Translations under genes and position numbers: made by a program
The notes under the pieces: model-generated
Databases searched by the model: none
What the model was told of the DNA's origin: nothing
Seen by the model: the letters and a program-made list of their open reading frames with translations, nothing else
Shown here: in pieces, positions 9,279 to 29,640 of the stretch
Numbering within the stretch: the first letter of the stretch is position 1
Layout: each line of letters begins with the position of its first letter
Virus record (IMG/VR): IMGVR_UViG_3300034082_002096
Origin: an uncultured virus (IMG/VR IMGVR_UViG_3300034082_002096)
Lineage: Duplodnaviria > Heunggongvirae > Uroviricota > Caudoviricetes
Direction: 5' to 3' (one strand)
DNA length: 64,000 nucleotides

Positions 9279-9767
9279 TTATATAGTTTCAGTATTATAA
9301 AATCTACCATGAGCAACTTGGTCTGCACCATACGAACTAGCCCATGATTCTGGTTTCATCTTTGGTGTCACACCTGTAACTCCCAAAACATATCCTGCTG
9401 CTTGTATAGCAACACAATTTGAACCATGTTTTGGATCGGTATTTACGTCTAGGTGAATTTCGACTTCATATTCATCAATGAATGGAATAAGTTGTGTGTA
9501 TAATTCACATACTTTTATAACTTCGTTCATTAATCGAATATTTGGTCTGTTTTTCTTTACATCAAAGTCTGGTTCTACTGATATATTTGAAAATACTCTG
9601 CATCCTTTGTTTCCATTCATATGAACAATTGCAACGGTTGCGAATCTTGCTTTTTTTTGACCATTTCGAATAAAACGAACGGAGTCACACCCTAGATAAA
9701 TCTTAGTCGATTTATCTAATGTAGATAATAGTTCTACTATATCTTCAATTTGCTTTTGGGTAAACAT
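9279..9767 (-). CDS. RNase H-like YkuK family protein
   Basis: IYLGCDS, RLMNEV, EIHLDVN, KPESWASSYGAD. Confidence 0.85.
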   Translation of the reverse strand: MFTQKQIEDIVELLSTLDKSTKIYLGCDSVRFIRNGQKKARFATVAIVHMNGNKGCRVFSNISVEPDFDVKKNRPNIRLMNEVIKVCELYTQLIPFIDEYEVEIHLDVNTDPKHGSNCVAIQAAGYVLGVTGVTPKMKPESWASSYGADQVAHGRFYNTETI

Positions 9768-12457: not shown

Positions 12458-12721
12458 TTATATTACTTCTATAATAGGAGAAATAATAGCAGTATTTGAT
12501 TCATCAATCTTGAGGTTACACTTTTTAATCTTAATGGCACCTTTTGTGCTTGGATTATCTGGTGTTTCTTTAGTTGACCAACCGACTTGACAATCTACGT
12601 GATTAACGTAATACGATTGTCCTTTTGCTTTAACTATCCACATTGGAATAGCGGAATCTTCTAGATGTTTTTTATTAAAATGAAAAACTATCTCCGAACA
12701 ATTTAAATCAATCTATGACAT
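12458..12721 (-). CDS. hypothetical protein with in-frame TAG at codon 3
   Basis: AGGA RBS then ATG TCA TAG ATT GAT..., in frame with IVFHFNKKHLEDSAIPMWIVKAKG. Confidence 0.7.
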
Positions 12722-12901: not shown

Positions 12902-12978
12902 TGGTGGTCTAGGTGGGACTCGAACCCACGATCAATGATGTTAGGGCACCATCGCATTAGCCGCTATGCTACAAGACC
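12902..12978 (-). tRNA. tRNA with abnormal anticodon loop (CCT or CTA; identity unresolved)
   Basis: Normal D-arm, T-arm and CCA; anticodon arm ATGGT-GCCCTAAC-ATCAT (8-nt loop). Confidence 0.7.
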
Positions 12979-15051: not shown

Positions 15052-15167
15052 ACTGGAACATATTTTTGACGGTTGTTCTACCACTGAACTACATCTATCA
15101 TGTGTGATAAATGGTAGGATTCGAACCTACGACCCACTGTTTGTTTAAAAAATGCTGTAATGTTCCA
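15052..15167 (-). ncRNA. stem-closed RNA carrying a circularly permuted tRNA elbow (Y-RNA-like)
   Basis: TGGAACAT-TACAGCA, then T-arm GTAGG-TTCGAAT-CCTAC, looped acceptor CATTTATCA-CACA-TGATAGATG, D-arm GTTC-AGTGGTA-GAAC, then ATGTTCCA-GT. Confidence 0.85.
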
Positions 15168-15178
15168 AATTGATATAT

Positions 15179-15270
15179 TGGCGGAAGAGGTGGGATTTGA
15201 ACCCACGGGAGGCTTTCACCTCCGTCCGCTTTCAAGGCGGATGCAATCAGCCAGACTCTGCCACCCTTCC
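15179..15270 (-). tRNA. tRNA-Ser(TGA)
   Basis: Anticodon arm TCCGC-CT TGA AA-GCGGA; long variable arm; GCCA end. Confidence 0.92.
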
Positions 15271-15278
15271 ATATTGTT

Positions 15279-15611
15279 TTACTTTTTCCAAAGCGAAGCT
15301 AAGTTTTTTTCTAGTAAAACATTATTAATGTTTATATCTTCACATACAATTTCTGCAAGCCATCTACCAAAAGAATCAGATTTTCTAGTTTCAATAATAA
15401 CTTCTTTATTTAACAAAGTATTTCTTAGATATTCTTTTGCTTCAATAGCAAGTTTTCTTTTTTCTAGATTGGTATCGTGCATTTCTTCTGTGTCAATTCT
15501 ATTAAGTCTTAACCTTTGAGTAGTATGGATTTTAAATCCCATATCTATTATTGCATCAACCGTATCACCATCTATTACATTTATTATAGTTGCTTTGTAT
15601 GTATACATCAT
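15279..15611 (-). CDS. thermonuclease (SNase family)
   Basis: VIDGDT, RLNRIDTEE and DSFGRWLA motifs. Confidence 0.9.
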   Translation of the reverse strand: MMYTYKATIINVIDGDTVDAIIDMGFKIHTTQRLRLNRIDTEEMHDTNLEKRKLAIEAKEYLRNTLLNKEVIIETRKSDSFGRWLAEIVCEDININNVLLEKNLASLWKK

Positions 15612-15988
15612 AATATTCCTTTATGATGTATTTATTACATTAAATTTGTATATTATCCAAATTCAAAATGCTTACCAACTGTCATCCATGTTTGCATAGC
15701 GGATGCTGTCATTTGCACTAATGATTTTTCATCAGTAGTTTCAAGAATTACTGGATTGGTATTTTCTTGTAACATCAATTCTTTGTATGACTCTAAGTCA
15801 GTATTATATATCCATCCACGCATTATGCTTTCCTTATGTCGTTAGCTGATTTGCCTTTTAATTTTTTCTTCATTTTATAAGGCCATTCGCCTTCTGGATA
15901 CCAATGTCTGAAGTTGTATATTGCACCAGAAAGAGAAAGGCTTATTGAGTATCCTTGCTTTCTTAAAAATATATACCATTTGATCATA

Positions 15989-16162
15989 CTATTTTCCAGT
16001 TAATGTATCTGCCATATTATGATTAACATCAGCATGGCCTTGTTCGTCATTTCTTACACAAACTATTACATCACGAAGAGTTGCATTGTTATCTAACTTA
16101 TAATAGTCAATTGCTATTTGTGGTGCAGATACATTTTCTACTCTTCCCGAGTCTATTTCTGT
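15989..16162 (-). pseudogene. C-terminal remnant of alternative oxidase (AOX)
   Basis: TEIDSGRVENVSAPQIAIDYYKLDNNATLRDVIVCVRNDEQGHADVNH...; in-frame TAA immediately upstream and no N-terminal part. Confidence 0.8.
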
Positions 16163-16235
16163 TTAGACTGGGCTGTTTGCAGCTTTGACCTATCACTAGG
16201 GCCACCCTCACAAGGGGTGATTATATCCAGTCTAA
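16163..16235 (-). ncRNA. four-way-junction structured element
   Basis: TTAGACTGG/CCAGTCTAA closing stem with hairpins CACCC/GGGTG, CCTA-GTGA-TAGG and GCTG-CAAA-CAGC. Confidence 0.55.
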
Positions 16236-16238
16236 TTT

Positions 16239-16315
16239 TGGTTGCGGGGGAAGGATTTGAACCTTCGACCTCTTGGTTATGAGCCAAGCGAGCTACCGGA
16301 CTGCTCTACCCCGCA
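16239..16315 (-). tRNA. tRNA-Met(CAT), initiator-like
   Basis: GCGGGGTAGAGCAGTCCGGTAGCTCG...TTCAAATCC..CCCCGCAACCA resembles tRNA-fMet. Confidence 0.88.
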
Positions 16316-16502
16316 AAAATTCTGCTTTCAACTGCATACATATTTACTAACCCAGTTGCACCTGTGCTTTCTATACCTGTAAGGCACTAAAACTTCCATA
16401 CCCATTCGAAGAGGTGCTTAGTGTGTATGCATGTAAAAACAGAATAATTATTATTCTGTTTTTATCGTTCATTATCGGGTTTCCCCTAGAACACATAATA
16501 AA

Positions 16503-16515
16503 TTTTCAAAGAGCA
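16503..16515 (-). promoter_or_regulatory. boxA-like site
   Basis: TGCTCTTTGAAAA just downstream of the promoter at 16532-16560. Confidence 0.7.
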
Positions 16516-16531
16516 ATTAGTTAATATAGTC

Positions 16532-16560
16532 AGTATAGATGATTCGAATGTGGTTGTCAA
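16532..16560 (-). promoter_or_regulatory. sigma70 promoter with CGAATC in the spacer
   Basis: TTGACA-ACCACATT-CGAATC-ATC-TATACT. Confidence 0.8.
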
Positions 16561-16635
16561 GTAGTATTTACCACAGATCAATTATTTTATGTCCATTGAT
16601 CATAGTTAGTGTTTTGTTAAATTGAAGTATAGTAT

Positions 16636-16923
16636 TTATACTATTTTAGTTAATATATAATCAGGATTTTCTCCAGTCATAATATCATGGTATAAAGATG
16701 TTTCATCCAATTGTAGACCATTTAGCCAGAAATAATAATCTAGTTCATATGCAAAGTCCATTTCATTTGCACCCGGTGCATCTGAAAATCCTTCCATGTC
16801 CCATAACATAGCATCTTTCATAGAAAGATCATATTCATTCATCATTGAAATTATTCTGGTAGCAAACGTAAAACGATTATTAATAGTATTCATGGGAGTA
16901 AGCAACGATTTAATGATATTCAT
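16636..16923 (-). CDS. hypothetical protein
   Basis: 95-aa ORF on the coding strand. Confidence 0.6.
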   Translation of the reverse strand: MNIIKSLLTPMNTINNRFTFATRIISMMNEYDLSMKDAMLWDMEGFSDAPGANEMDFAYELDYYFWLNGLQLDETSLYHDIMTGENPDYILTKIV

Positions 16924-16984
16924 ATATTATTCTCTATATAATAGGGGTTATACACTATTATATAACCCCCTATGTTATTTTTAA

Positions 16985-17251
16985 TTATGAAGAAATTCCG
17001 CTATTTTTTGGTAGCTGTTTCCAAATGTCACGTGCGTTTACCCGAATGAAAGGCTTGTTGGTTTCATTCTTGTTTGGATTTTCAATAGTCACAACTACAT
17101 TTTTTCCAGCACGAAATGCTTTAAGCTGATTAATAGGTCGTTCTGAACTTTGCATATAGTCAAGACGCATTGCATTGCGAATCTTGGGGTTTACGTTTGA
17201 GTTTATACCCGACGAAACGTAACCACTAGATTTTCCACCTTTTTTAGCCAT
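16985..17251 (-). CDS. basic hypothetical protein
   Basis: GKNVVVTIENPN..ETNKPFIRV; GGAG RBS. Confidence 0.75.
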   Translation of the reverse strand: MAKKGGKSSGYVSSGINSNVNPKIRNAMRLDYMQSSERPINQLKAFRAGKNVVVTIENPNKNETNKPFIRVNARDIWKQLPKNSGISS

Positions 17252-17334
17252 TGTAAGTTCTCCTTGGTTTTGCTTATGTTATAAGCGGTTGATGATTAAT
17301 AGTATCGTAGGTTCAATGTGTTGTCAAGTGTCAT

Positions 17335-19179
17335 TTACCAGATACCAGATAGTTTCTTCAATTCGGTAATTATTTTTTTATTATTTTCTTCTGATTCATT
17401 ATATTGAACTTCTCGCATAAAATATCTAGATGCCCAATCTGGACTTATATTAAAGTTTGATGGGTCTGTATCGTTTTCACTTGCTTTAACTGATTTAAAT
17501 TTATTGAATAAATTTTCTTCATCTTCGTCAAAATCACCATAAGATTTTTTATTTGATAAACTTTTAATGTTACTTTTTATTTCATAGCTGTCTATGTTAT
17601 ACCAATCTTGGTTAGACATAACATCACTAGCAACCATGAATGCATCTTCATTGTCATATGAATCACTATCATTAAAAGATTCATCTAATACTTCAACAAA
17701 ATCTTCCAAACTCATAGAAATAGTTATAGGTGATTGCATATTAGAAACATCATAATTAATTCCAATTTGATAATTTCTATTTGCACGATAAACTAATTTC
17801 ATTAGCAATTCTATATATTCGCTGAAACCTTGTTCATTTTTTATATTTTTAATTTGGCTACTTTTAATCATTGAGTAAACTAAATCACGATGATACTTGC
17901 TGTTTACTATTTTTTCGGATATTTCTTCTTTAACAAGATATGAACTTATATTCTTTCTTATATTCAAATCATTTGCAATTTTTTGCAAGTATTCGTCTGG
18001 CAATCTTTCTATCACCATTAGATATTCATCAGTACTAAATTTTATTTCGTATGATAGCGTTTCCATTTCTCTGTCATCTAATTCTTCTTTACCAGCAGCT
18101 TGTACAGCATTTTTTAAATAATCAAATGATATATCATCTGCAAATTCTTCAAAATTGTCCCATTCTTTTAATATTACTTCTTGAGTATCTACTTTTATTT
18201 CGTGAATTTCTGGAAGTTGCGATTCATCAATTTTATATTCTATCTTGCTTATAATTTCTGGTGTTGCACCATATTTTCTTAACAAGGGTGATAAAGCCCC
18301 ACCATATACATCTAAATCTGGGTTGGCATCAAATACTTCTTTTTTCTGAGTTTCAGATAAATCAGAAAATTCAAAGTTCATTTCTGGTCTATAACCACCA
18401 CCACGAATTCCTTTTATCAATTTTTTATTTTTTAACAGTTCTATGATATATGGATAAAACTTAGGTATAGGTTTTTGATTGTGTGCACCTTTCATTTCTC
18501 CCAAATATCCATTTTCCCACAAAATAAAAGTCATCATCACTATCCAATTACCATCTTTATTTTTGTTTCTAAAAGATAGTATTCTTTGTCCAGATTTTGC
18601 AGTAGGAACGTTTCCACAATGTCCACCAGCAGATGCTTCATCATCACAACCACCACGAGGCAATAACCACCATGCAGAATTATCCTTGAACTGTATTACT
18701 ATTTTATCTTCTGGTCGGATAACAGCAAAAGGTCTTTTATTTTTCTTCCATTCATTTTCAAATTCATTAAAATCGTTTAATATTTTACCAACAGACTGAT
18801 TTGTAAATGTATAGTTTTGTATTTTTCCTACATCAGACAAACTCATAAAGTGTTCTAAATTTCTTTTGTCATTGTTGGTAATGGTTTCACCGAACCCATC
18901 ATTTTCCAACTGTTGGTTATCTCGAATTAATTTATTTTTTAATTTTGATAGTGTTTCTGGGGTTTCTAATGTAACAATATATTTTATATATCCATATTTT
19001 ACATGCTTCAAATACCATATTATTCTATCTGATTTCTTCAAATGAGTTTTAGCCCATTCTATTTCTTGCTTATAATTTACTAAGTAAGATTGTATTAAAT
19101 TGTTTTCTAGATATGGCAACACAAAATTAAACATGGTTTCATAATCTTGTGCTTCTAGTAAAATACGAATATTTTTCAT
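17335..19179 (-). CDS. large hypothetical protein, probable internal head/ejection protein
   Basis: N-terminus MKNIRILLEA; C-terminus LKKLSGIW; E..AGGHCG...SFR...EMKG..NQKP core; TATAAATA at 19200-19207. Confidence 0.7.
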   Translation of the reverse strand: MKNIRILLEAQDYETMFNFVLPYLENNLIQSYLVNYKQEIEWAKTHLKKSDRIIWYLKHVKYGYIKYIVTLETPETLSKLKNKLIRDNQQLENDGFGETITNNDKRNLEHFMSLSDVGKIQNYTFTNQSVGKILNDFNEFENEWKKNKRPFAVIRPEDKIVIQFKDNSAWWLLPRGGCDDEASAGGHCGNVPTAKSGQRILSFRNKNKDGNWIVMMTFILWENGYLGEMKGAHNQKPIPKFYPYIIELLKNKKLIKGIRGGGYRPEMNFEFSDLSETQKKEVFDANPDLDVYGGALSPLLRKYGATPEIISKIEYKIDESQLPEIHEIKVDTQEVILKEWDNFEEFADDISFDYLKNAVQAAGKEELDDREMETLSYEIKFSTDEYLMVIERLPDEYLQKIANDLNIRKNISSYLVKEEISEKIVNSKYHRDLVYSMIKSSQIKNIKNEQGFSEYIELLMKLVYRANRNYQIGINYDVSNMQSPITISMSLEDFVEVLDESFNDSDSYDNEDAFMVASDVMSNQDWYNIDSYEIKSNIKSLSNKKSYGDFDEDEENLFNKFKSVKASENDTDPSNFNISPDWASRYFMREVQYNESEENNKKIITELKKLSGIW

Positions 19180-19215
19180 TCAACTCTTCCTTTTAGATAT
19201 ATTTATATCTAAATT

Positions 19216-19578
19216 TTATATTAGAGTTAAACCATTTTCTCGGTCTAAGAATTTATATTCTATTTTTATAGGATCAAATATTTTAATTTTTTCAAGAACT
19301 TTATCTATGTCTAGTGATCCACATGTGTAAACATCTAATTGCATAAGGGCTGGATCAGTTTCATCCCAAATATGCATAGCGATATGACTAGTTTCAATTA
19401 TAGTAACACAAGTCAATCCACGGTTTCCAGCAACATCTAAATATTTTGCGTATGGTCCCATCAATATTTTCATATCTATGTCTTTTACCAATTCAGAAAT
19501 CCATTTACATGCCCATTCTTCATTTATGGGTGGATTTTTTACTTCTGCACGAATTATAAGATGCTTGTGTTCTAACAT
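19216..19578 (-). CDS. speD: S-adenosylmethionine decarboxylase proenzyme
   Basis: GLT...IETSHIAMHIW.E...QLDVYTCG. Confidence 0.9.
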   Translation of the reverse strand: MLEHKHLIIRAEVKNPPINEEWACKWISELVKDIDMKILMGPYAKYLDVAGNRGLTCVTIIETSHIAMHIWDETDPALMQLDVYTCGSLDIDKVLEKIKIFDPIKIEYKFLDRENGLTLI

Positions 19579-19613
19579 ATATTATTAACTCCATGTATAA
19601 TACTTTAAATTAT

Positions 19614-19871
19614 TTATCTATTTTGTAAGATATATTGTATCACTATATCATTATGGACTTTTACCATAAAATGTGGATATCGTAAAAAAGAGTTTCTTCC
19701 ATATGATAGTTTTCTAGCAATGGTTTCGAGTTCTACTAATTTTGGATTTAGTTTTATTACTTTGCATACCGCCATAGAGCCTTTTGTTCCACCATCTGCT
19801 GCGACAACAATATCTCCAACTAATAATGGTTCTCCAAAAAAGTCAACGTGTTCTATTATTTTTTTTACCAT
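19614..19871 (-). CDS. hypothetical protein
   Basis: DFFGEPLLVGDIV motif, common in small phage SH3-like proteins. Confidence 0.65.
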   Translation of the reverse strand: MVKKIIEHVDFFGEPLLVGDIVVAADGGTKGSMAVCKVIKLNPKLVELETIARKLSYGRNSFLRYPHFMVKVHNDIVIQYILQNR

Positions 19872-19932
19872 ACAATAACCTTGGTGTTAATTTTTTATAT
19901 TTAATCGTAAATATAATTGAAAGGAATGCACC

Positions 19933-20271
19933 ATGGAGTTTACTATATTACAAGTTGGAGACGTAGCTATAAAGCTGTCTAGTTTATTAACGCCAATTAT
20001 TATGGCATCACTTACTTATATGTTAACTATATGGTTTAAAGACTTTTTAAGCAGAATAGCAAAAGGTTGGCTATTCAAAATGAATGATCAATTTAATGAA
20101 AGCGATAAAGTTATATTAGATAATGAATATGCTATTATCGTAAAAATGGGTGTTACTCATACAGTGTTTGGAATTGAAAAAGCAAATGGTGATTATACTT
20201 GGAGATATGTCCCAAATGAAACAATTCATACTGTTAAGCTTGAAAAGATCGTTTCTCAAAAAGAAACTTAA
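19933..20271 (+). CDS. small membrane protein, MscS-core-like
   Basis: TM helix followed by F...D.V.LD...A.I..MG...T.F...VPN; AAGGA RBS. Confidence 0.6.
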   Translation: MEFTILQVGDVAIKLSSLLTPIIMASLTYMLTIWFKDFLSRIAKGWLFKMNDQFNESDKVILDNEYAIIVKMGVTHTVFGIEKANGDYTWRYVPNETIHTVKLEKIVSQKET

Positions 20272-20275
20272 TAAT

Positions 20276-20366
20276 TGGCGGAACATACAGGATTCGAACC
20301 TGTGGCAGGCTATTAACCTGCGACGGTTTAGCAAACCGCTGGTTTAAACCACTCACCCAATGTTCC
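20276..20366 (-). tRNA. tRNA-Ser(GCT)
   Basis: Anticodon arm GCGGT-TT GCT AA-ACCGT; long variable arm. Confidence 0.92.
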
Positions 20367-20374
20367 GTTATTAA

Positions 20375-20448
20375 TGGTGGAGGCGAAGGGAATTGAACCC
20401 TCTGACAACAATCTTGCAAGGATCATCCGTAACCCCATTACCGCCCCC
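20375..20448 (-). tRNA. tRNA-Ala(TGC), reduced D-arm
   Basis: G3:U70 acceptor GGGGGCG/CGCCTCC; anticodon arm TGATC-CT TGC AA-GATTG. Confidence 0.75.
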
Positions 20449-20454
20449 ATATTT

Positions 20455-20688
20455 TTATTTTTGTGTTTCTAACTTTAAATTCAATATAAAGTTTTCAACT
20501 AATAGTTTTGTCATCGCAGCCATCGCAACATCAAGTTTTTGATCATTTTCAATATTATTGATAATTTGAATGACACTAGATGCCATTAAGCGATATGCTG
20601 TAGTTTCGTCAACTCGAAGATAGCCCCATTCTATGGGGTCAGTTATTTCTACTTGTTGTGCTAAATCTGCTAAATCATTTACATTCAT
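20455..20688 (-). CDS. hypothetical protein
   Basis: DPIEWG...KLLVENFILNLKL. Confidence 0.7.
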   Translation of the reverse strand: MNVNDLADLAQQVEITDPIEWGYLRVDETTAYRLMASSVIQIINNIENDQKLDVAMAAMTKLLVENFILNLKLETQK

Positions 20689-21131
20689 CTTGGATAATAT
20701 ACCATTTCTACTTCATCATAGCCTTCGTAATCGCCATGTTCAATTGCATCATCATCTAAAAACTCATCGTCAACAACAAACCCAAGACTACTATACCACT
20801 TAATTAGTTTAACAGTATCAGTAACATACTTTGGGTCTTTGGAGTAAGCTTTGGCAATCAAATGTAATCTTACATGATGTTTATCTGCAAGATTAGTTAG
20901 TATCTTCATAGCTTCTGTTCCCGCACCAGTTCTTGGTAATAATGATCTTATATCAGATATATGAATATCTTTATCATAAGCTGAAACTTCTATAGAAGCA
21001 TTTTTTAAAATACGTGATCTGCTATCAAATGGATGCTCTGTAGTTATTTTATCAATATCTGCCAAAAATGCAGTAGTATTATCACTTCTTCCGCTACCAA
21101 GCTTTATTCTTGTTACCTCAAATATTTTCAT
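20685..21131 (-). CDS. GNAT acetyltransferase-like protein, probably virion-packaged
   Basis: R.GAGT..M...LADKH...LIKWY..LGF; N-terminus MKIFE; TATAAATA at 21153-21160. Confidence 0.75.
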   Translation of the reverse strand: MKIFEVTRIKLGSGRSDNTTAFLADIDKITTEHPFDSRSRILKNASIEVSAYDKDIHISDIRSLLPRTGAGTEAMKILTNLADKHHVRLHLIAKAYSKDPKYVTDTVKLIKWYSSLGFVVDDEFLDDDAIEHGDYEGYDEVEMVYYPR

Positions 21132-21168
21132 AACTATCTCCAACTATAGTTATATTTATAAAAATATT

Positions 21169-21244
21169 TGGCAGGGGCAGCAGGGCTTGAACCCGCGACC
21201 TACGGTTTTGGAGACCGTCGCTCTACCAACTGAGCTATACCCCT
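21169..21244 (-). tRNA. tRNA-Trp(CCA)
   Basis: Anticodon arm ACGGT-CT CCA AA-ACCGT; GCCA end. Confidence 0.93.
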
Positions 21245-21247
21245 ATT

Positions 21248-21430
21248 ATAGACTTTATTATTGAAAGAACTCTATAGGGTAATTACTCCTATTCGGGGAC
21301 ATTGTTTGCAACCAATGTTTGATCCCAACTTTTGTGTTACAGAGTCGAACTGTCCCTGCCCCGCGAAAGGGGGCTATGCATCCGCTTACAACTTACACTA
21401 CTTGTCTGCTCTCTCAATAATAAAGTCTAT
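21248..21430 (-). ncRNA. ~180-nt RNA closed by a long terminal stem
   Basis: 17-bp IR ATAGACTTTATTATTGA/TCAATAATAAAGTCTAT; internal T-loop-like ACAG-TTCGACT-CTGT. Confidence 0.6.
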
Positions 21431-21516
21431 TATAATAAAACTTTATATTATGTAGTTCACGTTTCATATCCATAGTTTTATTGACATTACTATTTATATA
21501 AAACGTGAACTCTATG

Positions 21517-21589
21517 CTGGGGATGGAGGAATCGAACCTCCGTGTGTCAGGACCAAAGCCTGATGCCTTACCAACTTGGCTAATCCCCA
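21517..21589 (-). tRNA. tRNA-Gln(TTG), no encoded CCA
   Basis: Anticodon arm TCAGG-CT TTG GT-CCTGA. Confidence 0.9.
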
Positions 21590-21595
21590 ATAAAA

Positions 21596-21787
21596 CCATA
21601 TAAAAACACACTAGACCACTTATGCTACATGACCAAGGCCAAGGTAGGTGAACCAATCCTACATCTATCAGATACCACTCCGATCACATTAATCAAAAGT
21701 CGTCAACTACCTTTGATTGGGTTATATTGGTCTATTCAATTAATAATCGTTGACGACATATTATTAATCTAGTGTGCTTATATATGG
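21596..21787 (-). ncRNA. ~190-nt RNA closed by a long terminal stem
   Basis: Imperfect IR CCATATAAAAACACACTAGA / TCTAGTGTGCTTATATATGG; internal GTCGTCAAC/GTTGACGAC stem. Confidence 0.55.
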
Positions 21788-21908
21788 TGCCCCCACGACG
21801 ACTTGAACGCCGGACCCCCTGATTATGGAAATACACCTTGTGAACTTATCGTTAAATATTTCTCGTGTATTTTCAAATCAGGTGCTCTACCAACTGAGCT
21901 ATAAGGGC
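21785..21908 (-). tRNA. tRNA-Thr(TGT) interrupted by a 48-nt insert (21826-21873) within the anticodon
   Basis: Removing the insert gives a canonical 76-mer: GCCCTTATAGCTCAGTTGGTAGAGCACCTGATTTGTAATCAGGGGGTCCGGCGTTCAAGTCGTCGTGGGGGCACCA. Confidence 0.85.
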
Positions 21909-21926
21909 ATAAAAGTATTTATGTTT

Positions 21927-22112
21927 TCACATAATACCTTTTTCTTCCAAAAGTTTTTCATTGGTTTTTCCAACAACTGCTAAGATAAGTATTGCAAAAA
22001 CTCCAAATAAAAACCCACCAAGTGCCCAACCAATTTTATTACGACCACGTGACTCTGCCATTATTGCACCAATTATTGCAAAAATAACAGCAAATATTAA
22101 TATTAATTCCAT
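21927..22112 (-). CDS. small membrane protein
   Basis: A..RGRN..GW..GG..FG..A motif; two TM segments. Confidence 0.7.
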   Translation of the reverse strand: MELILIFAVIFAIIGAIMAESRGRNKIGWALGGFLFGVFAILILAVVGKTNEKLLEEKGIM

Positions 22113-22141
22113 AGTATCCCTTTCTGTAGGACTAAGTTAAG

Positions 22142-22278
22142 ACAGATTGTATTTTCTACTTTTTTAACCAGAAAATCGAAAACTGGTGTGGCATCGTAGA
22201 TTACACCAATACCGAAGTATTCCATAACCGGACGTTGATAGCCTGTGCTAAGTTTTATAGTTTGGCTGTATACAATCT
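22142..22278 (-). ncRNA. stem-closed CAGC-motif RNA (multi-hairpin payload)
   Basis: AGATTGTA-TACAGCCAA ... TACAATCT-GT; internal AATAC-TTCG-GTATT. Confidence 0.7.
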
Positions 22279-22288
22279 TAATTCGTTT

Positions 22289-22415
22289 ACTGGATCAACT
22301 TTTATACGGCGTCCTACCACTAGACGAACTGCCCATAATAATTATGGTGGGCAGTAGAGGAATCGAACCTCTGTTCACGGCTTGGAATGCAATTAATTGT
22401 TGCTGTAATGATCCA
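22289..22415 (-). ncRNA. stem-closed CAGC-motif RNA carrying a permuted tRNA
   Basis: TGGATCA-TTACAGCAA, TTCCAA, T-arm AGAGG-TTCGATT-CCTCT, ACTGCCCA-CCA-linker-TGGGCAGT, D-arm, TGATCCA-GT. Confidence 0.85.
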
Positions 22416-22618
22416 AAATTCTATTATACTGTTTGTCTAATTTTTTCTGCAACATGAGAAGGTTGAACACGCACTTCATAATCATCAATAACATAACCTA
22501 CTTCTGACTTATCCCATGCACCAACGCCTTTTACTTTGACGTGAGTTTTACCAATAACATATTCGTATTCTTTTTCGTCTACTGTAATCTTGCGGTAAGC
22601 CATAGTATTTCCCTTCTT

Positions 22619-23146
22619 TTAAAAATATTTATAAGTTATAAATTTTACTATTTCTAATATTCTATTTTTATCAACACCATATTTTCTACCAAGTGCCCTA
22701 CTTCCAAAATTTTTATCACTCTTGATATAATTTTTTCTAATATATTCTACATCTTCTTCTAATAATGCTCTACTATTATAGGATGCTTTCTTTTTTGAAA
22801 CTATATTATGTTCCATTAGACCATTGCGTAATGCGTGTTGCATATTTTCTTTTGGTGTAACCCATTCTAAATTCGAATAATGATTATTTATTTTATTTCC
22901 ATCAATATGATTTACTTCTATAAAATTGTTAACATTTTCTACAAAACATTTTGCTACTTCTCTATGAAGTCTAAAACATTTATTTGTTCCATTCCTTCCA
23001 CCTATTTTAGTGGATATTAGAACATATCCTGTTTTTGATATAGAAGATGTCAAAATCTTATTTGTTCGTAAAGAAAACAAATTTCCATGATCACTTATAA
23101 GAAATAAATCTTCATATCCTATAACTTTTTTCCAATTTTCATTCAT
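22619..23146 (-). CDS. NUMOD4-HNH homing endonuclease
   Basis: ENWK.V.GYE..F.ISD.G (NUMOD4); HREVA..F; VNHIDGNKINNHYSNLEWVT..EN..H. Confidence 0.92.
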   Translation of the reverse strand: MNENWKKVIGYEDLFLISDHGNLFSLRTNKILTSSISKTGYVLISTKIGGRNGTNKCFRLHREVAKCFVENVNNFIEVNHIDGNKINNHYSNLEWVTPKENMQHALRNGLMEHNIVSKKKASYNSRALLEEDVEYIRKNYIKSDKNFGSRALGRKYGVDKNRILEIVKFITYKYF

Positions 23147-23165
23147 ATTTCATTCTTTGTTTTAA

Positions 23166-23249
23166 TGGTAGCCGTACCCGGACTTGAACCGGGAAGCATA
23201 AAGCGTCAGATTTTAAGTCTGATGTGTTTACCAATTTCACCATACGGCC
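23166..23249 (-). tRNA. tRNA-Leu(TAA)
   Basis: Anticodon arm TCAGA-CT TAA AA-TCTGA; CCA. Confidence 0.92.
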
Positions 23250-23278
23250 ATCGTTAGTAACCTAATCTTTATAAGAAA

Positions 23279-23355
23279 TGGTGGCCCCAGAGCGACTTGA
23301 ACGCCCGACCCAGAGATTAGAAATCTCTTGCTCTATCCAACTGAGCTATGGAGCC
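23279..23355 (-). tRNA. tRNA-Arg(TCT)
   Basis: Anticodon arm AGAGA-TT TCT AA-TCTCT; A20 in the D-loop. Confidence 0.93.
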
Positions 23356-23363
23356 GTATTATA

Positions 23364-23425
23364 TCAGGATGATTGGTTGCTTTTTTGATTACAAGTCAAG
23401 TGCATTGATTTGCTGAAATCATCCT
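23364..23425 (-). ncRNA. stem-closed CAGC-motif RNA carrying a Thr(TGT) anticodon stem-loop
   Basis: AGGATGATT-TCAGCAAA ... TTGA-CT TGT AA-TCAA ... AATCATCCT-GA. Confidence 0.8.
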
Positions 23426-23480
23426 TATAACATTTAATGAGAATAACTAACAGTTAGTCTTATAAAATATTATAGTATTA

Positions 23481-23558
23481 TGGAGGCAGGGGAGGGATTC
23501 GAACCCCCGAAACAACGGATTTGCAATCCGCACCATTAGGCCACTCTGGCACCCTGCC
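23481..23558 (-). tRNA. tRNA-Cys(GCA)
   Basis: Anticodon arm GCGGA-TT GCA AA-TCCGT; TCCA end. Confidence 0.92.
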
Positions 23559-23574
23559 ATTTTAGTTTGTAGTT

Positions 23575-23651
23575 TGGTAGGAGATCAGGGAGTCGAACCC
23601 TAAATTCAGGTTTATGAGACCTGCGTGTTAAACCATTTACACCAATCTCCC
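23575..23651 (-). tRNA. tRNA-Met/Ile2(CAT)
   Basis: Anticodon arm CAGGT-CT CAT AA-ACCTG; CCA. Confidence 0.85.
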
Positions 23652-23670
23652 AAAAGTTTTATTTCTATAT

Positions 23671-23732
23671 TGTCAAAGAGCGATAGTTCGTTTCGTTAAG
23701 CTAGTTATACTTGATTCGCTTAGTGCTGTCAA
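23671..23732 (-). promoter_or_regulatory. GANTC-containing sigma70 promoter (23704-23732) plus boxA-like site (23671-23681)
   Basis: TTGACA-GCACTAAG-CGAATC-AAG-TATAAC, then GCTCTTTGACA. Confidence 0.75.
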
Positions 23733-23741
23733 GAACATTTT

Positions 23742-23818
23742 TGGTAGACCCTTTCGGACTTGAACCGAAATATTCAATCTTATGAGGATTGTTCATTCAC
23801 CAATTATGATAAAGGTCT
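23742..23818 (-). tRNA. tRNA-Met/Ile2(CAT)
   Basis: Anticodon arm CAATC-CT CAT AA-GATTG; CCA. Confidence 0.82.
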
Positions 23819-23886
23819 ACAAAGAATGTTCTTGTTTTCGTATTATCATACTAACTCATATTGAAGTTAGTGTCAAGAGGTATTTT

Positions 23887-23942
23887 ACAGGATCATCTTG
23901 GTTTTTTCAAATAAAAAATTTAAGATTTGCGGAACTGATCCT
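23887..23942 (-). ncRNA. stem-closed CCGC-motif RNA
   Basis: AGGATCA-GTTCCGCAAA ... TTAAA-TTTTTTA-TTTGA ... TGATCCT-GT. Confidence 0.75.
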
Positions 23943-23951
23943 AAGTATTAC

Positions 23952-24003
23952 ACAGAATAATTTTGTTTGTATTTGCGAACATTAATGTTGCTGAAATTAT
24001 TCT
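23952..24003 (-). ncRNA. stem-closed CAGC-motif RNA (short)
   Basis: AGAATAATT-TCAGCAAC ... AATTATTCT-GT. Confidence 0.7.
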
Positions 24004-24016
24004 TAGAATTTTTAAT

Positions 24017-24091
24017 TGGAGCGGGTAGTGGGAATCAAACCCACTTCATTAGCTTGGAAGGCTAAGGCAACAATCAATATACCATACCCGC
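24017..24091 (-). tRNA. tRNA-Gly(TCC), second and atypical copy
   Basis: Same acceptor and anticodon arm as the 11427 copy; D-loop lacks GG; T-loop TTTGATT. Confidence 0.85.
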
Positions 24092-24311
24092 AATTTGCCC
24101 ACCATTTTTGGTTCATAATAAAAATGGTGGAAAAGTAATTTTCATTATGCTAGGATTCGAACCTAGACCATAGTGCTACTATGGAACCGATACAACTACT
24201 AATCACTTCTATTTAATAGCAGGGGCAACCGTCATAGTTTGCACTACGCTGCCGTTGTTATCCCCCGCCCGTGTTCATACCGAGATATGAACAATTTTTT
24301 ATAACATTTTG

Positions 24312-24385
24312 CTCTGGCGGTTGGGGTCGAACCAACGACATTCAGATTAACAATCTGACGCAACTACCAACTGTGCTACGCCAGA
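24312..24385 (-). tRNA. tRNA-Asn(GTT), no CCA, acceptor stem extended by flanking IR
   Basis: Anticodon arm TCAGA-TT GTT AA-TCTGA; flanks TATAACATTTTGC/GCAAAATGTTATA. Confidence 0.88.
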
Positions 24386-24400
24386 GCAAAATGTTATATT

Positions 24401-24460
24401 ACAGGATCATTTGTTTTTCAAACCAAAATTGAATTTTTATAACTTTGCGGAACTGATCCT
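24401..24460 (-). ncRNA. stem-closed CCGC-motif RNA carrying a Gln(TTG) anticodon stem-loop
   Basis: AGGATCA-GTTCCGCAAA ... TTCAA-TT TTG GT-TTGAA ... TGATCCT-GT. Confidence 0.8.
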
Positions 24461-24524
24461 TAACTTTTGTGATAGATTACTCTATCAAATTCTTGCGGTT
24501 TACAGGTTTATCGCCCTACGCTAG

Positions 24525-24639
24525 TAATCTGTTTTCATCTGTGCCTTAACTCGTTTATTCATAAACGAACAGGCTATTCCACGTTAAGTAGGATTTGGCT
24601 AAACACCAATTTTTACCACACACAGATGAAAACAGATTA
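24525..24639. ncRNA. RNA closed by a 19-bp perfect inverted repeat
   Basis: TAATCTGTTTTCATCTGTG / CACAGATGAAAACAGATTA. Confidence 0.55.
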
Positions 24640-24755
24640 GCCAACGATACGATAAATCGTATCTCACAGTCATTACAACTGTGTGGCTATCTATTATAAA
24701 AGCCCATCGCCGTTTCAGCGTTCCTTTCGGAGCATTCACGTAGGGCTTAACCAAA

Positions 24756-28812: not shown

Positions 28813-29640
28813 TTACGAGTTTGCTGTTTCCATTACAACTTCATCAAATGCTTCATCTGGATTTACTCCAAGTTCAGCAATGACTTCGTAGCTACATGCA
28901 CGACCTTTACTACGATTGTAGTCAGATGGAATGCTTACTACATCACGTGGATTAATCTTTAGGATCATAACACGTTCTCCACCAAAGCTACCAAGATACT
29001 CTTTAGAGCAGAAATGCAATCCTTCGCTACAAGTTTGATTTTTATCATCATTTACTTCATTGCGAGGCATAGAAATAACAGTAACGCCATTTTCAACGTT
29101 TACAGTAACTTCTTTTTTCTTTCCACTTACGAGCGGAAGTGATGCGGTTTCTTCTGGGGTAAAAGTAGCTGCTACTTTGTTTAGAACAGTTCCGCTATGA
29201 ACATCTAGGTAATCAGTGCGAACTTTCTTGTAAGCAAGGAATTGACCATCTGGCGTAATAGGCAGAGTATTCTTTTCAAGGAATTCATACAGTTCATTGA
29301 CTGCACGATAGCTTGGGTTTTGCATCAGGTTTTCCATGAAAAGAACCAGTGGTTCAATTGGGAAACCATCTTGGAACATCTGGATCATGCGGCGAGATAG
29401 TGAATTGTGGAATTCACGACCTTTCCAATATAGAGTTTCGCCTTTGATACTGATATTACCAGCACCATAAGAAAGAATAACTTTCTTTGGTTCTACTGTA
29501 TTTTTTACAGTTTCCCAGTCACCAATTTTGATTGCATCTAGGACTTTGTTAAAAGCAATATGTCCCTTGTTAATAGTATGGGAATTTGCCCCAATCACTA
29601 CAACAATGTTATTGCCTTGAATAATATATGGATATGACAT
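28813..29640 (-). CDS. rIIB: rIIB lysis inhibitor-like protein
   Basis: NPS....ELY.FL, ITPDG.FLAYK.V, MPR..V.DD...TCS.GLHFCS, P.DVVSIP.DY..SKGR.C.Y. Confidence 0.92.
   Translation of the reverse strand: MSYPYIIQGNNIVVVIGANSHTINKGHIAFNKVLDAIKIGDWETVKNTVEPKKVILSYGAGNISIKGETLYWKGREFHNSLSRRMIQMFQDGFPIEPLVLFMENLMQNPSYRAVNELYEFLEKNTLPITPDGQFLAYKKVRTDYLDVHSGTVLNKVAATFTPEETASLPLVSGKKKEVTVNVENGVTVISMPRNEVNDDKNQTCSEGLHFCSKEYLGSFGGERVMILKINPRDVVSIPSDYNRSKGRACSYEVIAELGVNPDEAFDEVVMETANS

What the first reader, a model, noticed from the sequence alone, without database searches (positions are those of the whole stretch)
15052..24460. Family of seven stem-closed small RNAs with one conserved handle and interchangeable tRNA-derived payloads
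Seen in sequence: seven minus-strand elements (15052-15167, 22142-22278, 22289-22415, 23364-23425, 23887-23942, 23952-24003, 24401-24460) share one architecture. A 7-9 bp terminal stem varies in sequence but always pairs (TGGAACAT, TGGATCA, AGATTGTA, AGGATGATT, AGGATCA x2, AGAATAATT). The 5' side carries an unpaired T[AT]C[AC]GC[AC] motif, and G(T/A) follows the 3' stem strand. The interior differs: a permuted tRNA elbow, an anticodon stem-loop, or other hairpins. Known: bacterial Y RNAs (YrlA) combine a terminal Ro60/Rsr-binding stem with a permuted tRNA-like module. Inference: this is a phage-encoded modular RNP with one protein-binding handle and a library of tRNA mimics. It may decoy or tether host anticodon nucleases or tRNA repair/decay enzymes. 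No Ro60/TROVE gene is visible in this window.
Basis: partly seen in the sequence, partly recalled or inferred. Interest (0 to 1): 0.92.

Follow-up and report, generated by a model that had tools for sequence, protein, structure and literature searches.

The report
Phage tRNA-mimic RNAs sharing one handle
A large family of small phage RNAs encoded among tRNA genes joins one conserved closing "handle" to different pieces of tRNA shape, and the handle resembles an enigmatic class of amoeba RNAs rather than the Ro60-binding Y RNAs first suspected.

Summary
The seven elements are real and lie at the stated coordinates. All are on the tRNA strand of a T4-like lake phage. They share a fixed geometry: a 7-9 bp closing stem, exactly 10 nt from the 5' end to C[AC]GC, and G after the 3' strand (7 hits against 0.22 expected). 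They belong to a phage-specific family found in hundreds of viral contigs and in cultured phages KVP40, BUCT-ZZ01, DLP_6 and Milchi. The stem covaries and the unpaired motif stays fixed. Payloads are tRNA parts. Short members carry a 5-bp/7-nt-loop anticodon-arm mimic (45 of 81 against 6.3 expected). Long members carry a circularly permuted tRNA body supported by covariation. The Ro60 reading fails: true-like handle-bearing records encode TROVE in 0 of 19, and cultured genomes in 0 of 3. The Rsr-binding motif is present in 0 of 136 members. A canonical control phage has both motif and TROVE. The handle instead mirrors Dictyostelium Class I RNAs (Rfam RF01414, sub-threshold). Function is inferred: stable tRNA-part mimics acting as decoys or adaptors. 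No partner protein was found.

The parts
15052..15167 (-). Element 1, long class A-i: handle + permuted tRNA body with no anticodon loop. 5' strand 15160-15167, motif 15152-15160, T arm 15114-15130, acceptor-like hairpin 15092-15113, D arm 15075-15089, 3' strand 15054-15061, tail GT 15052-15053.
   Evidence: Rfam YrlA 30.9 bits, below the gathering score of 69. Member of alignment A2, whose helices covary.
22142..22278 (-). Element 2, large-interior class: 9-bp stem (22270-22278 with 22144-22152), motif AUACAGCCA, structured non-tRNA interior with a T-loop-like hairpin at 22168-22186.
   Evidence: A related element is G006 36673-36778. KVP40 has 213- and 247-nt elements with the same handle type. 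Exact RNA-library contig over 22196-22381.
22289..22415 (-). Element 3, long class A-ii: handle with the exact UUACAGCAA motif (22400-22408), small 7-nt-loop hairpin 22380-22390, T arm 22356-22372, 7-bp acceptor hairpin with encoded ACCA 22328-22355, D arm 22311-22325, 3' strand 22291-22297.
   Evidence: Interior 77.8% identical over 85 nt to a Ro-type element of phage Phosso. RNA-library contigs 22196-22381 and 22390-22540 with 0 mismatches.
23364..23425 (-). Element 4, short class: 9-bp stem, motif UUUCAGCAA, anticodon-arm-like hairpin UUGA-CUUGUAA-UCAA at 23385-23399, tail GA. Ends 8 nt upstream of tRNA-Arg.
   Evidence: Seed of alignment A1 and model R1, 52.3 bits. Related elements G002 68847 and G003 10083.
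23887..23942 (-). Element 5, short class: stem AGGAUCA/UGAUCCU, motif GUUCCGCAA, A/U-rich hairpin interior.
   Evidence: R1 60.6 bits. Related G003 7559 and 7977, the latter with a compensatory stem change AGGGUCA/UGACCCU.
23952..24003 (-). Element 6, short class: stem AGAAUAAUU/AAUUAUUCU, motif UUUCAGCAA. Starts 13 nt after tRNA-Gly and ends 9 nt before element 5.
   Evidence: R1 46.2 bits.
24401..24460 (-). Element 7, short class: stem AGGAUCA/UGAUCCU, motif GUUCCGCAA, anticodon-arm-like hairpin UUCAA-UUUUGGU-UUGAA at 24417-24433. Ends 15 nt upstream of tRNA-Asn.
   Evidence: R1 60.4 bits. Related elements in G006 38930 and G002 34012, the latter with stem GGGAUCA/UGAUCCC.

Best explanation
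These are genes for a phage-specific family of small structured RNAs. They are transcribed with the tRNA cluster and released by the processing of neighbouring tRNAs. Each RNA has two modules. Module 1 is a conserved handle: a 7-9 bp stem joining the 5' and 3' ends, an unpaired K-U-W-C-M-G-C-A-A next to the 5' strand, an A-rich 3' side, and a G after the stem. Module 2 is a payload that copies part of a tRNA. It can be an anticodon stem-loop (short class), a whole tRNA body with sealed or CCA-bearing acceptor end and swapped halves (long class), a lone T arm, or a larger unknown fold. Shown: the family, its structure, its tRNA linkage, its restriction to phages, and the absence of Ro60. Inferred: the handle gives every member the same stability and the same docking site for one conserved factor, still unidentified. 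The payload then presents a tRNA part to tRNA-recognising proteins. The RNAs would therefore act as decoys or adaptors for host anticodon nucleases or for tRNA repair, modification and decay enzymes. In layout and sequence the handle matches Dictyostelium Class I RNAs, not Y RNAs.
For: Real and non-random: 7 against 0.22 expected. 36 elements on the tRNA strand of six contigs have invariant unselected positions. Stem covariation: 5 of 7 pairs change on both sides; 98% of cells pair against 34-54% in slid controls. Model R1 recovers all 17 seeds plus new copies. Widespread: at least 122 and 95 viral loci, giving 177 distinct sequences. Of those, 123 have a Watson-Crick first pair and 125 a trailing G, neither required by the pattern. 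Linked to tRNAs: 127 of 236 element instances had a tRNA within the 1.5-kb flanks; in 126 of those 127 the nearest tRNA is on the same strand, at a median of 9 nt. G-U pairs occur on that strand. Phage-specific: 1 genuine hit among 6 in 185,579 species genomes, and that one looks like a phage fragment. tRNA-part payloads: a 7-nt loop in 45 of 81 (6.3 expected, maximum 14), a 5-bp stem in 31 of 45, U at loop position 2 in 36 of 45. The permuted tRNA body parses in 36 of 52, with NCCA after the acceptor in 14 of 36. Its helices pair in 92% of cells against 31-49% slid, and 18 of 28 pairs change on both sides. Class I likeness: RF01414 aligns end to end on two members at 27.4 and 30.6 bits. UUACAGCAA occurs in 15 of 136 and a 3' CUG in 85 of 136. 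The family definition comes from PMC7919456 (passages read). Weak expression hint: exact RNA-library contigs over elements 2 and 3. Context: the window encodes a CCA-adding enzyme, RNA ligase, RlaP, PTH2 and a kinase.
Against: No function was tested and no partner was found. TROVE and RRM domains are absent. The three locally linked candidates failed. PF04308 tracks tRNA clusters whether or not a handle is present. The 61-aa ORF has a handle nearby in only 8 of 55 full-flank loci. The best associated ORF (20 of 28 against 3 of 29) is missing from the window. The RF01414 hits are below the gathering score of 41.5, and none of the window's own elements hit RF01414 at E<=10. The phage linker is 3 nt where Class I has 4. 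Many payload loops do not match a canonical anticodon loop: 14 of 45 lack a purine at position 6. tRNA-likeness could reflect descent from tRNA genes and not mimicry. The RNA evidence consists of assembled contigs, which cannot show RNA ends or rule out DNA carry-over. Members were selected by requiring closure, which inflates the pairing percentages.
Confidence: 0.5

Rival explanations
1. Y RNA / Ro60 system, the first reader's view: the handle is a divergent Ro60 (Rsr) binding stem, and the RNAs tether host or phage Ro60 to tRNA-binding effectors as YrlA does.
For: The long class has the YrlA module order of T arm, acceptor-like hairpin, D arm. Sub-threshold RF02553 hits fall on element 1 (30.9 bits) and on 11 of 20 related elements. 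Element 3's interior is 77.8% identical to a bona fide Ro-type element of phage Phosso. A host-encoded Ro60 cannot be excluded because most hosts are unknown.
Against: No hit reaches the gathering score of 69, and 7 of the 11 hits cover only the tRNA-like part of the model. GNCGAAN0-1G is in the 5' strand of 0 of 136 members, and no CUUG precedes the 3' strand in any of the 136. TROVE is found in 0 of 5 records, 0 of 19 true-like records (0 of 6 that are >=90% complete) and 0 of 3 cultured genomes. Phosso, with canonical stems, encodes TROVE. Short members have no tRNA body at all.
Confidence: 0.08
2. Maturation cassettes for permuted or split tRNAs: the closing stem brings the ends together for cutting and ligation by phage enzymes, RNase P and CCA addition open the acceptor cap, and working tRNAs result.
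For: 7-bp acceptor stems, with NCCA encoded directly after the acceptor 3' strand in 14 of 36 (about 1 in 64 expected). Two members have tRNA-trailer-like 69- and 102-nt caps. The phage encodes RNA ligase, a kinase, a phosphoesterase and a CCA-adding enzyme. The same clusters hold tRNA genes with short inserts. M. smegmatis YrlA is cut by RNase P and receives CCA (PMC4201824, passages read).
Against: Class A-i has no anticodon loop: the handle takes its place, with a conserved non-Watson-Crick position in 13 of 17. Short members have no acceptor, T or D arm. No splicing endonuclease was seen in Pfam scans of the window. The same handle closes non-tRNA interiors (element 2 and the KVP40 213/247-nt elements). 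These phages already carry 22-51 ordinary tRNAs.
Confidence: 0.12
3. Cis-acting punctuation only: the elements are spacers that guide folding, processing or stability of the polycistronic tRNA precursor and have no role once released.
For: They lie a median of 9 nt from a tRNA. No promoter enrichment was found around them (10 found against 12.4 expected). Phage T4 also has stable by-product-like RNAs in its tRNA cluster (annotation).
Against: An unpaired 9-nt motif is conserved across phages of Vibrio, Synechococcus, Stenotrophomonas and Pseudomonas and across contigs of 33-45% GC. The payloads are themselves under structural selection. Many dense phage tRNA clusters do without them, so they are not needed for tRNA processing as such.
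Confidence: 0.2
4. DNA-level elements such as miniature inverted-repeat transposons, recombination sites or origins: the inverted repeats act in DNA.
For: Terminal inverted repeats flank variable cargo, with several copies per genome.
Against: Strand bias of 126 of 127 with the tRNAs. G-U pairs that would be C-A mismatches on the other strand. tRNA-type internal helices covary. Copies within one genome have different stems, and no target-site duplications are visible in the flanks.
Confidence: 0.02

Closest known systems
Dictyostelid Class I RNAs (Rfam RF01414; Kjellin et al. 2021, PMC7919456, passages read)
   Same: A short covarying stem joins the 5' and 3' ends. A conserved unpaired motif lies next to the 5' strand: the Rfam consensus is C-CUUACAGCAA, and the phage motif is K-U-W-C-M-G-C-A-A, with UUACAGCAA exact in 15 of 136. 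G is conserved at the start of the stem. The 3' end is CUG (85 of 136). The interior is variable and A/U-rich. Length is 42-65 nt against 49-66 nt for the phage short class. Genes occur in clusters of different copies. Two phage members align to the whole model.
   Different: Scores of 27.4 and 30.6 bits are below the gathering score of 41.5, and the window's own copies do not hit. The phage linker is one nucleotide shorter, and the phage stem has an extra first pair. The phage genes lie in tRNA operons, not behind their own DUSE promoter. Phage payloads are tRNA parts and can exceed 200 nt. The Class I partner Rnp1A is an RRM protein, and RRM domains are found in 0 of 5 phage genomes. The paper reports the class as unique to Dictyostelia, but it searched only eukaryotes plus Myxococcus.
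YrlA / bacterial Y RNAs (Rfam RF02553; Chen et al. 2014, PMC4201824, passages read)
   Same: Two-module design of a terminal stem plus a tRNA-like domain with T arm, acceptor-like hairpin and D arm in permuted order. [quoted passage not shown] They also occur in phages.
   Different: No rsr/TROVE gene, no GNCGAAN0-1G motif, a different handle sequence, scores of at most 40.3 against 69, and most family members carry no tRNA body at all.
Canonical phage Y RNAs with Ro60 (Sinorhizobium phage Phosso, found here; Thermus phage phiLo Ro60, PMC12135203, listing only)
   Same: A permuted tRNA body 77.8% identical to element 3's interior over 85 nt. Unannotated small RNA genes in a large phage.
   Different: Phosso's closing stems carry GCCGAUGG... 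and ACACUUG and its genome encodes a 590-aa TROVE protein. The family studied here has neither.
Phage T4 stable RNAs C and D (species 1 and 2)
   Same: Small stable RNAs of unknown function encoded inside a T4-type tRNA cluster. rnaC ends with a T-arm-like hairpin.
   Different: No closing stem with the CAGCAA motif, and no R1 hit in the T4 tRNA region.
Permuted and split tRNA genes of Cyanidioschyzon merolae and Nanoarchaeum (recalled; PMC4090602 seen in a search listing only)
   Same: The 3' half of a tRNA is encoded upstream of the 5' half, with the termini held together by a helix.
   Different: Those mature into working tRNAs through a bulge-helix-bulge endonuclease and a ligase. Here class A-i has no anticodon loop and no such endonuclease was seen.

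Membership tests
YrlA / Y RNA (RF02553) | Encoded beside, or in a genome with, a Ro60/Rsr (TROVE) gene | tested here: not met
   No TROVE among 72 window ORFs. 0 of 5, 0 of 19 true-like and 0 of 3 cultured records. Positive controls: Phosso and D. radiodurans. The window's own full genome is not held.
YrlA / Y RNA (RF02553) | GNCGAAN0-1G motif in the 5' strand of the terminal stem (Rsr-binding module) | tested here: not met
   0 of 136 members within the first 25 nt. Both Phosso controls carry GCCGAUG(G) plus ACACUUG.
YrlA / Y RNA (RF02553) | tRNA-like domain: T arm, acceptor-like stem-loop, D arm in that order | tested here: met
   Met for the long class only: 36 of 52 parse strictly and covariation supports all helices. 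Not met for elements 2 and 4-7.
YrlA / Y RNA (RF02553) | Score at or above Rfam's gathering threshold (69 bits) | tested here: not met
   Element 1 scores 30.9 bits. 11 of 20 related long elements score 26.6-40.3 bits and 9 of 20 have no hit at E<1. The model also misses the bona fide Phosso elements, so this test is weak.
YrlA / Y RNA (RF02553) | Physical binding to Rsr/Ro60 | not testable with these tools
   Needs immunoprecipitation.
Dictyostelid Class I RNA (RF01414) | Short stem joining the 5' and 3' ends, with structure but not sequence conserved | tested here: met
   5 of 7 stem pairs change on both sides. 19 or more different stems all pair. Members were chosen by closure.
Dictyostelid Class I RNA (RF01414) | Conserved 11-nt motif next to the 5' strand (Rfam consensus C-CUUACAGCAA) | tested here: inconclusive
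   The 9-mer UUACAGCAA is exact in 15 of 136. The majority variants are GUUCAGCAA (58), GUUCCGCAA (12) and UUUCAGCAA (11). The spacing is 1 nt shorter.
Dictyostelid Class I RNA (RF01414) | Invariant 5' G and conserved 3' end | tested here: inconclusive
   G2 was imposed by my scans. It is G in all R1 hits that I printed. The 3' end is CUG in 85, CAG in 28 and CCG in 22 of 136. True RNA ends are unknown.
Dictyostelid Class I RNA (RF01414) | Length 42-65 nt with a variable interior | tested here: met
   The short class is 49-66 nt. The long and large classes (82-247 nt) fall outside this range.
Dictyostelid Class I RNA (RF01414) | Score at or above Rfam's gathering threshold (41.5 bits) | tested here: not met
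   27.4 bits (KVP40) and 30.6 bits (L293), each over the full model. No hit on the window's elements at E<=10.
Dictyostelid Class I RNA (RF01414) | Own upstream DUSE promoter, independent transcription, and Rnp1A (RRM) partner | tested here: not met
   The elements lie 4-20 nt from tRNAs inside operons. RRM_1 is found in 0 of 5 phage genomes. Binding itself is not testable here.
Functional (permuted) tRNA | Anticodon arm with a 7-nt loop in a complete cloverleaf able to decode | tested here: not met
   ARAGORN calls none of the seven. Class A-i has a helix leading to the handle where the anticodon arm should be.

The most novel reading that the evidence does not exclude
The closing stem plus CAGCAA handle is the same functional module as in Dictyostelium Class I RNAs. 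It would be a portable RNA tag read by a factor conserved, or convergently targeted, in bacteria and amoebae. T4-like phages use it to display a library of tRNA parts (anticodon arms, tRNA bodies) as a new RNP class that intercepts tRNA-directed host defences or repair enzymes. Under this reading Class I RNAs are not unique to social amoebae. Their long-unknown molecular role would become testable in phage-bacterium systems, and an old transfer between bacterivorous amoebae and phages becomes possible.
Probability: 0.2. Interest if true: 0.92.

Novelty: new variant of a known kind. Interest (0 to 1): 0.8.

Why it matters
Phage tRNA clusters have been read almost entirely as tRNA supplies. This family shows that, across hundreds of T4-like phages, the same operons also encode a second, unannotated set of small RNAs. 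These are built on one conserved handle and carry separate pieces of tRNA architecture. In KVP40, a model phage sequenced two decades ago, they sit in gaps with no annotated feature in the tRNA cluster. If they are decoys or adaptors, they add an RNA-based layer to the current picture of phage tRNAs versus anticodon nucleases. The recurring tRNA-Lys(UUU)-type loops point that way. The handle's likeness to Dictyostelium Class I RNAs is unexpected. That RNA class is abundant, affects development, and has no known mechanism. A bacterial-virus counterpart would offer a tractable system for finding what the motif binds.

Tried and rejected
1. A second helix pairing UUC...AA with a downstream UUGAA. 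The TTGAA enrichment (18 of 81 against 3.5) turned out to be the 3' strand of the anticodon-arm-like hairpins.
2. A universal 4-bp helix abutting the stem (NCUU/AAGN'). It is present in only 47 of 136 against 22 expected and a maximum of 34, so it is a subfamily trait.
3. Partner proteins by synteny. PF04308 RNase H-like: 54 of 67 loci have tRNAs but only 24 of 67 have a handle. The 61-aa ORF P0001: a handle in 8 of 55 full-flank loci. An unknown 125-160-aa ORF: 20 of 28 against 3 of 29, but many loci are near-duplicates, it is absent from the window and G001, and it has no Pfam or PHROG match.
4. TROVE and RRM searches were negative.
5. T4 rnaC and rnaD do not carry the handle.
6. Rfam gathering-level scan: only tRNAs. 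No Rfam family matches the KVP40 large elements at E<=0.1.
7. Megablast and blastn against cultured phages found only tRNA-level matches plus the Phosso lead.
8. Promoter and terminator scan: 10 promoter-like sites against 12.4 expected and 1 terminator against 1.7. No inference drawn.
9. Read laying: stretches without cover, and the low-identity contigs of X23 and X24, carry no weight.
10. Literature searches found no description of this family. Supplements were not opened.
11. Our-findings look-ups by place and by sequence returned nothing.

Full report
CONTEXT. The window is an AT-rich (33% GC) piece of a T4-like phage. It encodes rIIA at 29681-31855. The DNA occurs in lake-water metagenomes. 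All 25 ARAGORN tRNAs lie on the minus strand between 1150 and 24385. Rfam at gathering level finds only tRNAs. The window also encodes a CCA-adding enzyme, PTH2, an RNA ligase with an N-terminal OB domain, an RlaP nucleotidyltransferase, an AAA_33 kinase, a metallophosphoesterase, Sir2, a Macro domain and NAD-salvage enzymes. The window's own genome is not held. A 28.5-kb viral contig, G001, is identical over the region tested.

OBSERVATION. Each has a perfectly paired 7-9 bp closing stem. C[AC]GC falls at positions 11-14 counted from the 5' end in 7 of 7. The tail is G plus T (6) or A (1). A scan for this architecture finds 7 on the minus strand and 0 on the plus strand. In 100 shuffles the mean was 0.22 and the maximum 2. 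That pattern is post hoc, so the real test is other genomes.

A FAMILY, NOT A LOCAL ODDITY. The 16-mer of elements 5 and 7 occurs in 43 viral-contig loci. Twelve copies in 11 of those loci (two in the window's near-identical twin contig) are closed by the matching 3' strand, around quite different interiors. The rest look like chance matches in coding sequence. I fetched six handle-bearing contigs whole and scanned them. After keeping only hits on the tRNA strand in or near the tRNA cluster, 36 elements remain: G002 11, G003 5, G006 8, G005 3, G004 2, window 7. Positions I did not constrain are nearly invariant: U9 in 36 of 36, A15 in 35 of 36, A16 in 31 of 36, G3 in 33 of 36, and A at -12 and -13 in 32 and 30 of 36. 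Stem pairs 1, 3, 4, 5, 6 and 7 each take 2-4 Watson-Crick types.

In an alignment of 17 short members, 5 of 7 stem pairs change on both sides. 98% of cells pair, against 34-54% when partners are slid. RNAalifold predicts the same stem unaided. Because members were chosen by closure, the pairing percentage is partly built in. The informative point is many different stems around one fixed unpaired motif. Related elements also show compensatory changes: AGGAUCA/UGAUCCU against GGGAUCA/UGAUCCC and against AGGGUCA/UGACCCU. A covariance model, R1, recovers all 17 seeds and further copies in 664 kb. It finds none in the Phosso or T4 control loci.

Among 177 distinct sequences, the unconstrained first pair is Watson-Crick in 123 and the base after the stem is G in 125. 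About 70% are therefore genuine. 127 of 236 element instances had a tRNA within the 1.5-kb flanks; in 126 of those 127 the nearest tRNA is on the same strand, at a median of 9 nt. A stricter pattern over 185,579 species genomes gives 6 hits. Only one is genuine: a 1.7-kb low-coverage contig with a Met-element-Cys-Leu-Arg run, the same four tRNA species and relative order as in the window's cluster, which I read as a mis-binned phage fragment.

Cultured phages carry the family too. KVP40 has 58-, 213- and 247-nt elements in stretches of its tRNA cluster that have no annotated feature. Synechococcus phage BUCT-ZZ01, Stenotrophomonas phage DLP_6 and Pseudomonas phage Milchi carry variants with a CAGCA(A/C) core.

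PAYLOADS. Short class, 49-66 nt. In 45 of 81 true-like members the best interior hairpin has exactly a 7-nt loop, against 6.3 in shuffles with a maximum of 14. The stem is exactly 5 bp in 31 of 45. Loop position 2 is U in 36 of 45, although interiors are only 27% T. Position 6 is a purine in 31 of 45. Loops include CUUUUAA, CUCUUAA, CUGUAAA, CUUGUAA and AUUUGGA. This is the shape of an anticodon arm. In Milchi, a member with UUUGA-CUUUUAA-UCAAA lies between tRNA-Asp and the phage's own tRNA-Lys.

Long class, about 105-135 nt. 36 of 52 parse strictly as T arm, 7-bp acceptor-like hairpin and D arm. The cap is 4-17 nt, with two outliers of 69 and 102 nt. NCCA follows the acceptor 3' strand in 14 of 36. 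For the subclass in which the handle replaces the anticodon arm (17 sequences including element 1), RNAalifold finds the stem, T arm, acceptor hairpin and D arm. My explicit count gives 92.4% of cells paired against 31-49% slid. 18 of 28 pairs change on both sides. There is also a 5-bp anticodon-stem analogue whose outer pair is CG 9 / GC 7 / AU 1 and whose central position is non-Watson-Crick in 13 of 17. A second subclass, which includes element 3, adds a small hairpin with a 7-nt loop and often an encoded ACCA. Other payloads are a lone T arm (G002 29239, G003 9989) and large folds of unknown kind (element 2, KVP40 213 and 247 nt, BUCT-ZZ01 178 nt).

NOT A Ro60 SYSTEM. Chen et al. (PMC4201824; passages read) define YrlA by adjacency to rsr, the 5'-strand motif GNCGAAN0-1G, and the tRNA-like domain. 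Only the last is met here. Element 1 scores 30.9 bits on RF02553, where the gathering score is 69. The alignment draws its score from the tRNA-like part and mis-pairs the stem. Among 20 loci with long members, 11 elements score 26.6-40.3 bits, 7 of them over model positions ~23-89 only, and 9 score nothing at E<1. The motif is in the first 25 nt of 0 of 136 members.

TROVE is absent from 72 window ORFs and from 5 of 5 handle-bearing records, including one rated 100% complete. Among 21 further large records, 1 is positive, but its pattern match is a doubtful chance hit, as is one other. That leaves 0 of 19, of which 0 of 6 are at least 90% complete. TROVE is also absent from KVP40, BUCT-ZZ01 and DLP_6.

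A positive control came by accident. Blastn with element 3 found two unannotated permuted-tRNA elements in Sinorhizobium phage Phosso. Their stems carry GCCGAUGG... and ACACUUG, which resemble metazoan Y RNA as I recall it. Phosso's genome encodes a 590-aa TROVE protein (E 7.5e-34). Rfam's YrlA model misses these elements, so the Rfam score alone is a poor membership test. The motif and gene tests carry the argument.

THE HANDLE RESEMBLES DICTYOSTELIUM CLASS I RNA. KVP40's 58-nt element hits RF01414 at 27.4 bits over the whole model (E 0.092 in 9.2 kb; E 8e-4 in 81 nt). Another member, L293 2033-2087, hits at 30.6 bits. It has the handle plus a UUCAA-CUUUUAA-UUGAA hairpin. The printed consensus is a 6-bp stem, C-UUACAGCAA, an A/U-rich interior, the 3' strand, then UG. 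The phage layout is (A)GGAUCA, K-U-W-CMGCAA, interior, UGAUCC(U)G. Infernal needs one deletion in the linker.

Kjellin et al. (PMC7919456; passages read) define Class I RNAs as follows. They are 42-65 nt. A short stem joins the ends and shows compensatory changes. An 11-nt motif lies next to the 5' strand. The 5' G is invariant and both ends are conserved. The rest is variable. One tested Class I RNA (DdR-21) binds the RRM protein Rnp1A directly. Genes sit behind a DUSE promoter. The authors report no example outside Dictyostelia, but they searched eukaryotes plus Myxococcus xanthus only.

In the phage family, UUACAGCAA is exact in 15 of 136, GUUCAGCAA is the majority form (58), and the 3' end is CUG in 85. 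Against membership: both scores are below 41.5; the window's own elements give no RF01414 hit at E<=10; the genomic setting differs; and RRM domains are absent from 5 of 5 phage genomes. I therefore file the family under neither Rfam family. It works like a hybrid of a Class I-type handle and YrlA-type or anticodon-arm payloads.

EXPRESSION. In one freshwater metatranscriptome (X22), contigs with 0 mismatches cover 22196-22381 and 22390-22540, which span elements 2 and 3. A third contig with 0 mismatches covers 16833-16983 and one with a single mismatch covers 17019-17236. Other cover of the 9.9 kb is at lower identity, largely over tRNA genes. This is a weak hint of transcription. Assembled contigs cannot show ends or strand, and DNA carry-over is possible.

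MECHANISM. Shown: the structure, the tRNA-strand linkage, the restriction to phages, and the tRNA-part payloads. Inferred: the RNAs are released when RNase P and 3' processing free the adjacent tRNAs. The closing stem then protects both ends. The invariant unpaired motif is a docking site common to all members. The payload engages proteins that recognise anticodon arms or the tRNA body. From my own knowledge, tRNA-Lys(UUU) loops are the targets of PrrC- and PARIS-type nucleases. The papers on phage tRNAs evading such defences were seen only as search listings. Members with a 7-bp acceptor stem and an encoded CCA are probably opened at the cap, as shown for M. smegmatis YrlA. No partner protein emerged from synteny or association tests.

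EARLIER NOTES. Other agents of this scan recorded handle-less permuted tRNA mimics in soil-phage tRNA arrays, and a canonical Y RNA array beside rsr. I did not test those notes. They suggest that permuted tRNA bodies are common in phage tRNA clusters, and that the conserved handle and the anticodon-arm payloads are what is specific here.

VERDICT. The modular reading is supported and the Ro60 reading is not. The family is unannotated, absent from Rfam at threshold, and not found in eight literature searches. I rate it a new variant of known kinds of tRNA-mimicking small RNA. There is a real chance of about 0.2 that it is the first non-amoebal counterpart of Class I RNAs.

Noticed in passing
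window 21785-21908 (-) and 2350-2460 (-); L491 7020-7132, 7143-7266, 8817-8932: tRNA genes with short intervening sequences. ARAGORN with the intron option calls a 48-nt insert at the canonical 37/38 position (encoded CCA, a 9-bp hairpin inside the insert) and a 37-nt insert in a second gene. KVP40's annotated 'tRNA-Pseudo-3/4/5' (113-124 nt) are of the same kind. The inserts are too short for group I introns, and the phage encodes RNA ligase and a kinase.
   Followed up: partly
L075 about 2465-2625 and 2700-2860 (Sinorhizobium phage Phosso, PV764938.1 about 24.17-24.57 kb): Two unannotated Y RNA-like genes: a permuted tRNA body closed by a stem with GCCGAUGG... and ACACUUG. The phage encodes a 590-aa TROVE protein at about 290.3-291.4 kb. 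Rfam YrlA does not detect them at E<1.
   Followed up: partly
window 9279-9767 (-): The PF04308 (DUF458/YkuK, RNase H-like) gene is tightly linked to phage tRNA clusters. 54 of 67 viral loci with a relative have tRNAs within 10 kb, all but one of them on the gene's strand, whether or not the handle is present.
   Followed up: partly
window 12458-12643 (-): A 61-aa ORF (P0001) has 216 or more relatives in viral contigs at 53-76% identity. In many loci exactly one tRNA is called within the 6-kb flanks. No Pfam or PHROG family.
   Followed up: partly
L343 8322-8780; L363 82-453; L460 6229-6603: An unknown 125-160-aa ORF family is present in 20 of 28 handle-positive against 3 of 29 handle-negative tRNA-cluster loci. 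The loci are not independent. It is absent from the window and G001, with no Pfam or PHROG match.
   Followed up: partly
window 12902-12978 (-): ARAGORN reports a tRNA with an undetermined identity and a two-base anticodon ('ct'). Rfam scores it as a tRNA at 50.7 bits.
   Followed up: no
window about 24520-24660 (-): A long inverted repeat (about 19-25 nt arms, ...UAAUCUGUUUUCAUCUGUG ... CACAGAUGAAAACAGAUUA...) lies just upstream of element 7 at the head of this part of the tRNA cluster.
   Followed up: no
window 442-1128, 3191-3661, 44306-45340, 47214-48110, 53080-54528, 59476-61359: A dense set of RNA-repair and NAD genes: Sir2, Macro, RNA ligase with an OB domain, RlaP, NAMPT, NAD synthase and NMNAT-Nudix. 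This is typical of large T4-like phages and may be functionally connected to the tRNA cluster.
   Followed up: no
L490 29405-29470 (Pseudomonas phage Milchi): A handle element whose hairpin loop is CUUUUAA (tRNA-Lys UUU type) lies between tRNA-Asp and the phage's own tRNA-Lys gene. Another element (29057-29118) is overlapped by an annotated 'hypothetical protein' CDS.
   Followed up: no
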